64,000 nucleotides of DNA, taken from NCBI RefSeq assembly GCF_041248615.1, contig NZ_CP158426.1; one strand, given 5' to 3'. The position numbers and the translations under genes were made by a program. Within the stretch, counting starts at the first letter, position 1; every line of letters begins with the position of its first letter. Positions 12,949 to 15,091 of this stretch are shown here, piece after piece. This DNA comes from Escherichia coli (GTDB lineage Bacteria; Pseudomonadota; Gammaproteobacteria; Enterobacterales; Enterobacteriaceae). A model generated the notes under the pieces. The model was not told where the DNA came from, did no database searches, and was given only the letters and a program-made list of their open reading frames with translations.

Positions 12949-13527
12949 ATGGCCTATTTAGATGAAATACAGTTAAAAGAAATGGGCTTCAAAAGCGTTG
13001 GAGAAAATGTAAAAATATCAGATAAGGCATCTTTTTATGGGTGTGATAATATTAGTATTGGGAATAATGTAAGGATTGATGATTTTTGCGTGTTTTCAGC
13101 TGGAGAGGGTGGTATTGATATACACGATTATATTCATATAGCGGTATATTCTTCAATTATTGGCAAAGGAAAAGTAACTATATCTGACTACGCAAACATT
13201 TCATCTCGAGTCTCAATATATTCCAGTAACGATGATTATTCTGGCAATTATATGTCTAATCCAGTAGTTCCAAGTGAATATACGAATATACATAGCGGTA
13301 CTGTATTTATAGGCAAACATGTTATCATAGGTTGCGGAAGTATTGTTCTTCCGGATGTTATTTTACATGAGGGTGCAGCAATTGGAGCTCTTTCTGTAGT
13401 CAAAGAGGATTGTGAAGCTTTTACGGTAAATGTAGGTATACCAGCTAAACCAATATCTGAAAGAAGCAAGAAATTATTGGAGCTTGAATCTGTATTTAAA
13501 CCAAGCGCTATTGGAGATAATCTGTGA
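12949..13527 (+). CDS. Hexapeptide-repeat (left-handed beta-helix) acetyltransferase, VioB/WbbJ-like N-acetylase of an amino sugar
   Basis: 192-aa ORF with repeated [LIV]-G-x-x-x-x hexapeptide pattern; adjacent to the aminotransferase. Confidence 0.7.
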   Translation: MAYLDEIQLKEMGFKSVGENVKISDKASFYGCDNISIGNNVRIDDFCVFSAGEGGIDIHDYIHIAVYSSIIGKGKVTISDYANISSRVSIYSSNDDYSGNYMSNPVVPSEYTNIHSGTVFIGKHVIIGCGSIVLPDVILHEGAAIGALSVVKEDCEAFTVNVGIPAKPISERSKKLLELESVFKPSAIGDNL

Positions 13528-14270
13528 AGATTCATATTTATTTTCGGCATACGGATATTAGTCGGACAACTAAAAATAATCGGCCTGAGTGGTTTAGTCA
13601 TGAAAATTGTTTTATAAATCTTATAAATACAATAAAAGAATCTAAATATAAAGACCAAATAGCATTTACTTTTATTTTTGATGGATCATTAAACGTTGCT
13701 TCCTTAGATCCGTTATATCAACACTTTGAAAATATCGATATGAATAATAAAAAGATATTCATAATCAATGGAGGAGATCAGCGCAAAGCATGGCGTGAAT
13801 GCGTAAAACTAGTAGATGAAGATCGTCGAGTTGGAAAAATTGATAAAAATGATTTAATATATTTTTTAGAAAATGATTATTTGCATGAGTCTAAATGGAT
13901 TGATGAGATATTTAACTTGGTCAAATCAAATATAAGATGGGATATGGCAACGCTTTATGATCATCCAGATAAATATAGTGAATATTGTGAACATCTTGAT
14001 TCATTAAAAAATAAAAACAAAAAAACTATTGTATTTTATTCTGGGAGTAGGCATTGGAAAATAGCACCAAGTACATGTGCAACATATATTATGAAAGCCA
14101 GGGTTTTTGATAGGACAAAAATAATTCTAAAATTAGCTATTTACGATTACAAATTATTTTTGATACTTACTAAAATATTTAGAATTAGACTTCTTTCACC
14201 TATCCCCGCTCTTTCAACTCATTGTATGGCTTCTTTGTTATCACCTTCAATCAATTGGGATGATTTATAA
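13524..14270 (+). CDS. Unassigned O-antigen cluster protein (possible non-canonical glycosyltransferase)
   Basis: 248-aa ORF, AT-rich, 4-nt overlap with upstream gene; no family motif recognised by eye. Confidence 0.45.
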   Translation: MKIHIYFRHTDISRTTKNNRPEWFSHENCFINLINTIKESKYKDQIAFTFIFDGSLNVASLDPLYQHFENIDMNNKKIFIINGGDQRKAWRECVKLVDEDRRVGKIDKNDLIYFLENDYLHESKWIDEIFNLVKSNIRWDMATLYDHPDKYSEYCEHLDSLKNKNKKTIVFYSGSRHWKIAPSTCATYIMKARVFDRTKIILKLAIYDYKLFLILTKIFRIRLLSPIPALSTHCMASLLSPSINWDDL

Positions 14271-15091
14271 TGGATTGTAAAAAAAAATTATGCATTGTGG
14301 CCTGTTCTTATACTTTAAAGCCAGAATTCATAATTAATAAATTATATAATTATTTACCAGATTATGAACTAGATGGTGTTGTGATTTCCAATAATCATGT
14401 AGTAGAACAGATTACAATGAAGGGATTTCATATCGAAAACGGGACAAATTCTCTTTTTGAGTTTTCTGCCTATAAGGAAGGAATAGATTTTTTAGAAGAT
14501 AGCTCATTATTACCATCAGGAGTACCAATTCTCATTTTGAATGATACATTGTTCTTGAAACATAATGCAAAATTCTTTTTAAGGAAAATTGTGAGTTATT
14601 ATTCAACAATTCAAAGAACTGAATTGCCTACAATGGCAGGTCGTTTAGATCCTTATAATAATATATGTTACAGTAACCCTTGGAATAATATGAATGGCTA
14701 TATATCTTCCTTTTGTATGCTAATAAATGAAAAATCTGCAAAAATAATTGTTAGTTGCTACAATGAGCTTCCAAAATATTTTTTTAGTAATGATATTGAT
14801 ATTATTGACCCCAAATGGGGAATGCAGATTGAATCAAGACTGAGAGAATTTATTCGTAGTCATTTAATTGATATAGACACAGATACGGTTTGGTATCAAG
14901 CTAAATTGTTACATAATGATAAACAACGAATTAATATTAAAGCTCAATGTGTCTTCATGGAACATTTCATATCAGGGAAGATTGGTGAAAGTGGAATTGT
15001 TGTTTCTATTTTTCCCACATGGAAAGGAAAGGTGTTAAATTTTTTAAACGAGCAATTGGCTAAAATCAAGAGGAAGATTATAATTAAATGA
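14270..15091 (+). CDS. Unassigned O-antigen cluster protein (possible non-canonical glycosyltransferase); A9 tract near 5' end
   Basis: 273-aa ORF, start overlaps previous stop; no family motif recognised by eye. Confidence 0.45.
   Translation: MDCKKKLCIVACSYTLKPEFIINKLYNYLPDYELDGVVISNNHVVEQITMKGFHIENGTNSLFEFSAYKEGIDFLEDSSLLPSGVPILILNDTLFLKHNAKFFLRKIVSYYSTIQRTELPTMAGRLDPYNNICYSNPWNNMNGYISSFCMLINEKSAKIIVSCYNELPKYFFSNDIDIIDPKWGMQIESRLREFIRSHLIDIDTDTVWYQAKLLHNDKQRINIKAQCVFMEHFISGKIGESGIVVSIFPTWKGKVLNFLNEQLAKIKRKIIIK

What the first reader, a model, noticed from the sequence alone, without database searches (positions are those of the whole stretch)
13524..15091. Two unassigned ORFs in the AT-rich core of the O-antigen cluster
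The ORFs at 13524-14270 and 14270-15091 sit between the aminotransferase/acetyltransferase pair and wzy, where serotype-specific glycosyltransferases normally lie. I cannot see GT-A DxD or GT-B motifs in either. The C-terminal 40 residues of the first ORF are low-complexity, which could indicate a frameshift. Counting these two plus the GT4 and GT2 gives four candidate transferases.
Basis: partly seen in the sequence, partly recalled or inferred. Interest (0 to 1): 0.5.

Follow-up and report, generated by a model that had tools for sequence, protein, structure and literature searches.

The report
O7 O-antigen glycosyltransferase genes wbbA, wbbB
The two "unassigned" ORFs are the intact, already named wbbA and wbbB genes of the E. 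coli O7 O-antigen cluster; both are very divergent GT-A-fold sugar transferases that most likely add the last two sugars (Qui4NAc and rhamnose) of the O7 repeat unit, so the finding is ordinary.

Summary
Both ORFs are real, sit at the stated coordinates and are translationally coupled to their neighbours. The region is 100% identical to the O7 O-antigen cluster of 96 RefSeq E. coli genomes. Order: rmlBDAC-wzx-vioA-vioB-ORF1-ORF2-wzy-GT4-wbbD-manC-manB.

- **Identity.** ORF1 is UniProt Q9XCW2 ("glycosyl transferase"); I take it to be wbbA from memory. One NCBI record names ORF2 WbbB; most call it "sugar polymerase" or "hypothetical".
- **No frameshift.** The ORF1 C-terminus is not low-complexity. 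It carries family-invariant residues (T232, H233, W245) and models at pLDDT 92-97.
- **Sequence searches.** Neither protein hits Pfam, NCBIfam or PDB sequences.
- **Motifs.** The DxD position holds invariant E116-N117-D118 in ORF1 and N91-D92 in ORF2.
- **Gene neighbourhoods.** ORF1 homologues lie within two genes of a close VioA orthologue in all five bacterial cluster types examined. ORF2 homologues persist in vioA/vioB/ORF1-free clusters that keep rml, man, wbbC and wbbD.
- **Inference.** WbbA is the Qui4NAc transferase and WbbB the rhamnosyltransferase. Neither has been tested biochemically.

Known genes, low interest.

The parts
11835..12947 (+). vioA, dTDP-4-amino-4,6-dideoxy-D-glucose aminotransferase (makes the Qui4N donor)
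   Evidence: ORF. RefSeq annotation in the identical cluster. Close orthologues flank ORF1 homologues in other taxa.
12949..13527 (+). vioB, hexapeptide N-acetyltransferase that makes dTDP-Qui4NAc; its TGA stop overlaps the GTG start of ORF1
   Evidence: Pfam Hexapep E 1.8e-8. RefSeq annotation. Junction sequence CTGTGAAG.
13524..14270 (+). ORF1 = wbbA (name from memory): 248-aa soluble GT-A-fold glycosyltransferase, proposed dTDP-Qui4NAc:Man beta-1,2 transferase
13869..13877 (+). ORF1 E116-N117-D118, invariant motif at the end of strand 111-116 (structural DxD position)
   Evidence: Invariant in 60 sequences. Strand assignment. Translation YFLENDYL.
14217..14222 (+). ORF1 T232-H233, invariant C-terminal motif (LSTHCM); candidate metal ligand; shows the C-terminus is in frame
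   Evidence: invariant columns. (translation). (pLDDT 92-97 over the C-terminus).
14270..15091 (+). ORF2 = wbbB: 273-aa soluble, very divergent GT-A-like protein, proposed dTDP-L-Rha:Man alpha-1,3 rhamnosyltransferase
14540..14545 (+). ORF2 N91-D92, invariant / near-invariant motif (NDT/NDS) at the end of strand 87-91 (structural DxD position)
   Evidence: N91 invariant, D92 >=90% of 78 sequences. (strand). (translation ILILNDTLF).
15088..16263 (+). wzy, O7 O-antigen polymerase (8 predicted TM); its ATG overlaps the ORF2 stop
16260..17372 (+). wbbC (name from memory), GT4 (GT-B) transferase, probable retaining alpha-mannosyltransferase
   Evidence: Pfam Glycos_transf_1 E 5.5e-31. RefSeq 'glycosyltransferase family 4 protein'.
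17362..18189 (+). wbbD, GT2 UDP-Gal:GlcNAc-PP-Und beta-1,3-galactosyltransferase (the only O7 transferase listed as characterised)
   Evidence: Pfam Glycos_transf_2 E 3.1e-17. RefSeq name. PMC7685785 and PMC4202792.

Best explanation
ORF1 and ORF2 are the intact wbbA and wbbB genes of the E. coli O7 O-antigen operon. They are translationally coupled to vioB upstream and wzy downstream. Both encode soluble enzymes with the GT-A / nucleotide-diphospho-sugar transferase fold, too divergent for Pfam or NCBIfam models to recognise.

Proposed pathway on the cytoplasmic face of the inner membrane:
1. WecA makes GlcNAc-PP-Und.
2. WbbD (GT2) adds beta-1,3-Gal.
3. WbbC (GT4) adds alpha-Man.
4. WbbB (ORF2) transfers L-rhamnose from dTDP-beta-L-Rha to the mannose.
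5. WbbA (ORF1) transfers Qui4NAc from the dTDP-Qui4NAc made by the adjacent VioA/VioB to the same mannose, completing the pentasaccharide that Wzx flips and Wzy polymerises.

Both last steps would be inverting transfers. ORF1's E116-x-D118 (with H233) and ORF2's N91-D92 would hold the donor diphosphate, probably through a divalent cation.

Shown: identity to the O7 cluster, intactness, fold, conserved motifs and gene-neighbourhood patterns.
Inferred: glycosyltransferase activity, donor and acceptor assignment, order of steps 4 and 5, and roles of individual residues.
For: - **Identity to O7.** 100% identity over 13400-15200 to 96 E. coli genomes annotated with O7 wzx/wzy, vioA/vioB and wbbD. 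Public names are 'glycosyl transferase' Q9XCW2 and 'WbbB'.
- **Number of steps.** The O7 unit Qui4NAc-Man(Rha)-Gal-GlcNAc (PMC7857678) needs four transferases after WecA. Apart from these two ORFs, the cluster has only a GT4 and the GT2 WbbD.
- **ORF1 motifs.** Invariant E116-N117-D118 follows strand 111-116, and T232-H233 is invariant.
- **ORF1 neighbourhood.** Homologues sit within two genes of a close VioA orthologue (E 1e-144 to 1e-202) in Kluyvera, Pandoraea, Polaromonas and a deltaproteobacterial MAG as well as O7. A phage-like contig has DegT - hexapeptide acetyltransferase - ORF1 homologue in the same order.
- **ORF2 neighbourhood.** E. albertii, E. hormaechei and Hafnia paralvei clusters keep rmlBDAC, the ORF2 homologue, wbbC, wbbD and manCB. 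They lack vioA, vioB and ORF1 and carry a GT-B gene instead. So ORF2 cannot be a Qui4NAc transferase there.
- **Gene order.** The order wbbA-wbbB-(wzy)-wbbC-wbbD is the reverse of the proposed order of action, a pattern seen in 39% of E. coli clusters (PMC7685785).
- **Coupling.** Start/stop overlaps GTGA, TAATG and ATGA.
Against: - No enzymology or mutant data for either protein were found.
- ORF2 has a single acidic residue at the DxD position.
- Profile searches found no significant sequence link to any solved structure, to WbbD, or between the two families.
- In the vioA-free clusters, the extra GT-B gene next to rmlC could itself be the rhamnosyltransferase. That would leave ORF2's donor open.
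- No rml genes lie within 10 kb of the Pandoraea ORF1-ORF2 pair.
- On viral contigs, ORF1-family genes rarely sit near a VioA-like gene (4 of 79; RmlB-like dehydratase/epimerase genes in 38 of 79). Donor specificity therefore varies across the wider family.
- The anomeric linkages (beta-1,2 and alpha-1,3) are from my memory of the published O7 structure, not from a held paper.
Confidence: 0.6

Rival explanations
1. The donor assignment is the other way round: WbbA is the rhamnosyltransferase and WbbB the Qui4NAc transferase. Both would still be GT-A-fold transferases.
For: Both remaining steps use dTDP-sugars and are inverting, so fold alone cannot separate them. ORF1-family genes on viral contigs are more often near RmlB-like genes than VioA-like genes.
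Against: ORF2 homologues (42-46% identity) occur in clusters with no vioA, vioB or ORF1 but with rmlBDAC. ORF1 homologues in five bacterial cluster types all sit within two genes of a close VioA orthologue.
Confidence: 0.1
2. ORF2 (WbbB) is not a glycosyltransferase. It would be another member of the nucleotide-binding alpha/beta superfamily (nucleotidyltransferase-like) or an accessory partner of Wzy/Wzx. One of the other transferases would then be bifunctional and make two linkages.
Against: All nucleotide-sugar activation steps of the O7 unit are already covered by rmlA and manC. Four linkages need four activities, and only three other candidates exist. The N-terminus (KLCIVACSY) lacks the glycine-rich G-x-G-[TS]-R loop of sugar nucleotidyltransferases (sequence; motif from general knowledge). 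It has no TM segment, so it is not itself a polymerase. The adjacent Wzy proteins are not homologous between the O7-type and E. albertii-type clusters.
Confidence: 0.2
3. ORF1 carries a C-terminal frameshift or sequencing error, so its last ~40 residues are not native.
For: The tail is rich in L, I and S.
Against: Entropy is within one SD of the protein's mean. Alternative frames are closed. Homologues from several bacterial classes align to the last residues, with invariant T232, H233 and W245. pLDDT is 92-97. All 96 matching genomes are >=99% identical over the region, the 15 listed at 100%.
Confidence: 0.01

Closest known systems
WbbA and WbbB of the E. coli O7 (VW187) rfb cluster, described by Marolda, Feldman & Valvano 1999 (cited in PMC6124807; paper not held)
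   Same: Identical genes: 100% DNA identity to O7 genomes, the same position between vioB and wzy, and public names 'glycosyl transferase' (Q9XCW2) and 'WbbB'.
   Different: Nothing differs. Added here: fold assignment, motif mapping, exclusion of a frameshift and a donor assignment from gene neighbourhoods. The mapping of the name wbbA to ORF1 rests partly on my memory of that paper.
WbbD of E. coli O7 (CAZy GT2, UDP-Gal:GlcNAc-PP-Und beta-1,3-galactosyltransferase)
   Same: Same operon, same pathway and GT-A fold class. It is an inverting, DxD-type enzyme acting on a lipid-linked O unit (PMC4202792).
   Different: WbbD matches Pfam GT2 at E 3e-17. ORF1 and ORF2 do not, and hhalign finds no significant similarity to WbbD. 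The donors are proposed to be dTDP-sugars rather than UDP-Gal.
GnT-I / POMGnT1 (GT13) and GnT-II (GT16), eukaryotic beta-1,2-GlcNAc transferases acting on mannose
   Different: Sequence identity is 7-12%. They are much larger, membrane-anchored Golgi enzymes that use UDP-GlcNAc. There is no detectable sequence homology.
VioT of Pseudomonas syringae pv. tabaci (modified-viosamine transferase of flagellin glycosylation)
   Same: It is a viosamine-derivative transferase assigned from mutant phenotypes and encoded beside vioA and vioB (PMC3927599). This is the same functional logic as vioA-vioB-wbbA.
   Different: VioT is a 1,173-aa protein acting on a rhamnosylated protein glycan. WbbA is 248 aa and acts on a lipid-linked O unit.
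GlfT2, mannosylglycerate synthase, EXT2 and ArnC (GT-A enzymes), and IspD-type cytidylyltransferases
   Different: Identity is 4-13% and Foldseek TM is only 0.3-0.4. ORF2 has N-D instead of DxD and a long helical C-terminal half (helices 154-272).

Membership tests
E. coli O7 O-antigen gene cluster (wbbA / wbbB) | Near-identical DNA and the same gene order as typed O7 strains | tested here: met
   All 96 matching genomes are >=99% identical over 13400-15200, the 15 listed at 100%, including an O7:H15 strain. Annotated O7 wzx, O7 wzy, vioA, vioB and wbbD flank the ORFs.
GT-A fold glycosyltransferase superfamily (ORF1) | Single Rossmann-like alpha/beta/alpha domain resembling solved GT-A enzymes | tested here: met
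GT-A fold glycosyltransferase superfamily (ORF1) | Acidic DxD-type motif at the C-terminal end of the fourth core strand | tested here: met
   E116-N117-D118 is invariant in 60 sequences and follows strand 111-116. It is an ExD variant rather than a literal DxD.
GT-A fold glycosyltransferase superfamily (ORF2) | Single Rossmann-like alpha/beta/alpha domain resembling solved GT-A enzymes | tested here: inconclusive
GT-A fold glycosyltransferase superfamily (ORF2) | Acidic DxD-type motif at the end of the fourth core strand | tested here: inconclusive
   N91 is invariant and D92 is conserved in >=90% of 78 sequences, directly after strand 87-91. Only one carboxylate is present.
Pfam Glycos_transf_2 (PF00535) / CAZy GT2 | Match to the family model above its gathering score | tested here: not met
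   Neither ORF1 nor ORF2 matches at E<=1. 7 of 60 ORF1-family members match weakly (best E 3.2e-6) and 0 of 78 ORF2-family members match. CAZy itself could not be queried.
GT-B fold transferases (GT4 / Glycos_transf_1) | Two Rossmann domains; match to GT-B models | tested here: not met
   No Pfam match. Both models are single-domain, and no GT-B enzyme is among the listed structural matches.
Sugar nucleotidyltransferases (IspD / GlmU / RmlA type), considered for ORF2 | N-terminal glycine-rich G-x-G-[TS]-R nucleotide loop | tested here: not met
   By inspection, the ORF2 N-terminus is MDCKKKLCIVACSYTLKPEF, and the family consensus has no such loop. The motif definition is from general knowledge.
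Wzy-type O-antigen polymerase (the 'sugar polymerase' label on ORF2) | Polytopic inner-membrane protein with about 8-12 TM helices | tested here: not met
   A hydropathy scan finds 0 TM segments in ORF2 against 8 in the adjacent wzy. The AF2 model is a soluble globular fold.
Glycosyltransferase activity and donor/acceptor specificity (both ORFs) | Measured transfer of Qui4NAc or Rha to a lipid-linked acceptor | not testable with these tools
   Only indirect evidence is available, from gene neighbourhoods. A 2019 review lists only WbbD of O7 as characterised.

The most novel reading that the evidence does not exclude
The WbbB (ORF2) family has about 380 cluster representatives, mostly in Proteobacteria. 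It has no Pfam, NCBIfam or PDB relative by sequence. It could be a not-yet-classified glycosyltransferase family with an Asn-Asp in place of DxD and a long helical C-terminal half, possibly a new class of L-rhamnosyltransferase. Less likely, it is a non-catalytic or differently catalytic partner that works with the neighbouring Wzy/Wzx membrane protein. Similarly, the WbbA family could be the first recognised dedicated family of viosamine (Qui4N-acyl) transferases, with many phage-encoded members.
Probability: 0.3. Interest if true: 0.4.

Novelty: already known. Interest (0 to 1): 0.2.

Why it matters
O7 is a common serogroup of extraintestinal pathogenic E. coli and a glycoconjugate-vaccine antigen (PMC7857678). 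Knowing which enzyme adds which sugar helps glyco-engineering and inhibitor design.

The practical gains here are modest:
- The RefSeq labels 'hypothetical protein' and 'sugar polymerase' for WbbB are uninformative or wrong.
- Both proteins are intact.
- There is now a specific, testable assignment: WbbA adds Qui4NAc and WbbB adds Rha.
- Both proteins belong to sizeable families that current domain libraries miss, so polysaccharide loci that contain them are under-annotated for transferases.

Tried and rejected
- **Pfam and NCBIfam scans of both proteins.** No meaningful hit. The best were chance-level matches such as YodL and DUF5889, and one NCBIfam 'hypothetical protein' far below its cut-off.
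- **Searches against PDB sequences**, with single sequences (phmmer) and with family profiles. Nothing credible.
- **hhalign of each family profile against WbbD, and of the two families against each other.** Not significant, probability <1%. The A1/A3 alignment lines up LENDYLH with ILNDTLF, but I do not rely on it.
- **Frameshift hypothesis.** Rejected.
- **ORF2 as a polymerase.** Rejected: no TM segments.
- **Genome-contig scan with the 78-sequence ORF2 alignment.** Rerun with 25 closer sequences, it gave 8 loci.
- **afdb50 fold search.** The library was not available.
- **Literature.** Several searches failed on term length. Wang et al. 2007 (PMC2168959) is not held. The supplement tables of the E. 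coli O-antigen review are not held.
- **O-antigen structure of the vioA-free cluster type.** Papers on E. albertii and Enterobacter O-antigen clusters did not give it, so the rhamnose assignment could not be checked against chemistry.
- **VioA adjacency across the whole ORF1 family.** It does not generalise to viral contigs: 4 of 79.
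Full report
**1. The observation**

The ORF listing finds ORFs at 13524-14270 (248 aa, GTG start) and 14270-15091 (273 aa, ATG start) on the + strand. They lie in a run of co-directional genes in the AT-rich core of the window. Their GC is 0.285 and 0.291, against 0.44 for rmlA and 0.55 for manB.

The junctions overlap. The vioB stop and ORF1 start form GTGA. The ORF1 stop and ORF2 start form TAATG. The ORF2 stop and wzy start form ATGA. This is the usual sign of translational coupling in an operon.

**2. What the region is**

A megablast of 13400-15200 finds 96 of 5,426 complete E. coli genomes. All matches are chromosomal and >=99% identical, and the 15 listed are 100% identical over the whole query.

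In an O7:H15 strain the annotated order is galF-rfbB-rfbD-rfbA-rfbC-wzx(O7)-vioA-vioB-'glycosyl transferase'-'hypothetical protein'-wzy(O7)-GT4-wbbD-manC-cpsG-gnd-ugd-wzz. The window therefore carries the typed O7 O-antigen cluster.

An exact-sequence look-up gives these public names:
- ORF1: UniProt Q9XCW2, 'Glycosyl transferase'.
- ORF2: 'sugar polymerase', 'hypothetical protein', and in one record 'component WbbB of exported sugar polymer'.

From memory of Marolda et al. 1999 (cited in PMC6124807; paper not held), these are wbbA and wbbB.

**3. The frameshift suspicion**

The evidence is against it:
- The last 40 residues of ORF1 have entropy 3.61 bits. The mean for all 40-residue windows of the protein is 3.78 +/- 0.18, and this window ranks 35 of 209.
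- The other two frames are closed by many stops.
- More than 500 homologues were found, nearly all covering 98-100% of the query.
- In a 60-sequence alignment, the tail carries invariant T232, H233 and W245 and near-invariant P226, P228, L230, M235 and P241.
- AlphaFold models the tail at pLDDT 92-97.

There is no frameshift.

**4. What the proteins are, by sequence**

Neither protein matches Pfam or NCBIfam meaningfully. The neighbouring GT4 and GT2 (WbbD) match strongly. Neither matches any PDB sequence, even with family profiles.

- **ORF1 family.** It is a large family. 7 of 60 members weakly match Pfam GT2, best E 3.2e-6.
- **ORF2 family.** A word-based search found only 9 full-length relatives, all in Enterobacterales. 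A profile search of 1.84 billion representatives found 377 at E<=1e-3, mostly about 270 aa and aligned end to end. None of 78 members matches any glycosyltransferase Pfam family.

**5. What the proteins are, by structure**

ORF1:
- The model is confident: pLDDT 94.7, pTM 0.93.
- Invariant E116-N117-D118 follows strand 111-116, the structural place of the DxD motif.
- F52-D53-G54 ends the second strand, where GT-A enzymes bind the nucleotide. That role is inferred from general GT-A knowledge.

ORF2:
- The model is also confident: pLDDT 96.5.
- Its neighbours are more distant: GlfT2 11.1, mannosylglycerate synthase 10.8, EXT2 10.6, ArnC 10.4. IspD and GlmU nucleotidyltransferases reach about 10.
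- Foldseek gives E ~1e-4 and TM 0.3-0.4.
- ORF2 therefore belongs to the nucleotide-diphospho-sugar transferase superfamily, but its branch is not settled by structure.
- Invariant N91 and near-invariant D92 follow strand 87-91. K224 and E231 are also invariant.
- It lacks the glycine-rich N-terminal loop of nucleotidyltransferases (inspection).
- It has no TM segment. The 'sugar polymerase' label is therefore wrong in the Wzy sense.

**6. Which sugar each adds**

The O7 unit is Qui4NAc-Man(Rha)-Gal-GlcNAc (PMC7857678). WecA starts the unit with GlcNAc (PMC7198725 reference list; established knowledge). WbbD adds Gal (PMC7685785, PMC4202792). A GT4 enzyme is the expected retaining alpha-mannosyltransferase (inference). 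That leaves Rha and Qui4NAc for the two ORFs.

ORF1 follows vioA:

| Source | Arrangement |
|---|---|
| Kluyvera cryocrescens | Whole O7-like cluster |
| Pandoraea apista | manC - vioA (E 1e-159) - wzx - ORF1 - ORF2 - O7-like wzy - ... - GT4 |
| Polaromonas MAG | ORF1 homologue directly followed by a VioA orthologue (E 6e-160) |
| Deltaproteobacterial MAG | VioA (E 2e-144) - wzx - ORF1 homologue |
| 174-kb phage-like contig | DegT - hexapeptide acetyltransferase - ORF1 homologue |

ORF2 persists without vioA. E. albertii, E. hormaechei and Hafnia paralvei carry rmlBDAC - GT-B - wzx - wzy - ORF2 homologue - wbbC - wbbD - manCB. They have no vioA, vioB or ORF1. ORF2 therefore cannot depend on Qui4NAc. 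It travels with the Man/Gal/GlcNAc backbone genes and rml.

The most economical reading is that WbbA is the Qui4NAc transferase and WbbB the rhamnosyltransferase. The gene order, reverse to the order of action, agrees with this.

Caveats:
- The extra GT-B gene could be the rhamnosyltransferase in those clusters.
- rml genes are not near the Pandoraea pair.
- On viral contigs, ORF1-family genes are rarely near VioA-like genes, 4 of 79. Specificity is therefore not uniform across the family.

**7. Comparison with what is known, and verdict**

The genes are already known and named as putative transferases of a typed cluster. A 2019 review lists only WbbD of O7 as characterised by biochemical or genetic methods. 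Both ORFs work like GT-A inverting transferases.
- ORF1 meets the fold and motif tests for the GT-A superfamily but not for Pfam GT2.
- ORF2 meets the superfamily fold test only loosely.

Nothing here would surprise a specialist. The useful outcome is a corrected reading and a testable donor assignment: no frameshift, a GT-A fold with variant motifs, and a misleading 'sugar polymerase' / 'hypothetical' label. Interest is low.

Noticed in passing
L019-L097 (IMG/VR viral contigs); L018:8772-11406: The ORF1 (WbbA) family is common on viral contigs: 79 loci at 27-38% identity, many on 100-175 kb contigs. One 174-kb phage-like contig (clamp loader and holin genes) has DegT - hexapeptide acetyltransferase - ORF1 homologue - GT2, mirroring vioA-vioB-wbbA. 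This suggests phage-encoded sugar-modification modules.
   Followed up: partly
window 18186-19610 versus L001:13787-15210: manC is an intact 474-aa ORF in the window. RefSeq annotates it as a frameshifted pseudogene in the otherwise identical O7:H15 strain ST70.
   Followed up: no
window 19644-21008: manB (annotated cpsG-like) has GC 0.55 against 0.29-0.35 for the cluster core. The sharp compositional boundary is consistent with a recombinant or housekeeping-derived end of the O-antigen cluster.
   Followed up: no
window 14270-16263; L002, L004, L006-L011, L014: ORF2-family genes lie directly next to a polytopic (8-11 TM) Wzy/Wzx-like gene in 10 of 13 loci, which is 5 of 7 synteny groups. The adjacent Wzy proteins are not homologous between the O7-type and E. 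albertii-type clusters. This may be chance in small clusters, or it may hint at a functional link.
   Followed up: partly
window 14270-15091: Public names for this soluble protein are inconsistent: 'hypothetical protein' in RefSeq, 'sugar polymerase' in many NCBI/UniRef records, and 'component WbbB of exported sugar polymer' in one. The 'polymerase' label looks like a propagated annotation error.
   Followed up: yes
L002:5737-12905 (Pandoraea apista): A betaproteobacterium carries vioA-wzx-ORF1-ORF2-wzy, with a Wzy homologous to O7 Wzy (E 4e-54) and a WbbC-like GT4. It has no vioB or rml genes nearby, and GDP-heptose-type genes lie downstream. Part of the O7-type module appears to be shared across bacterial classes.
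   Followed up: partly
alignments A1 and A3: The hhalign comparison of the two families is not significant (E 0.17). It nonetheless lines up four motif pairs in the same order: GGD..KAW / GTN..SAY, LENDYLH / ILNDTLF, YDHPDKY / GRLDPY and PSTCA / ISSFC. The adjacent genes might be very old paralogues.
   Followed up: no
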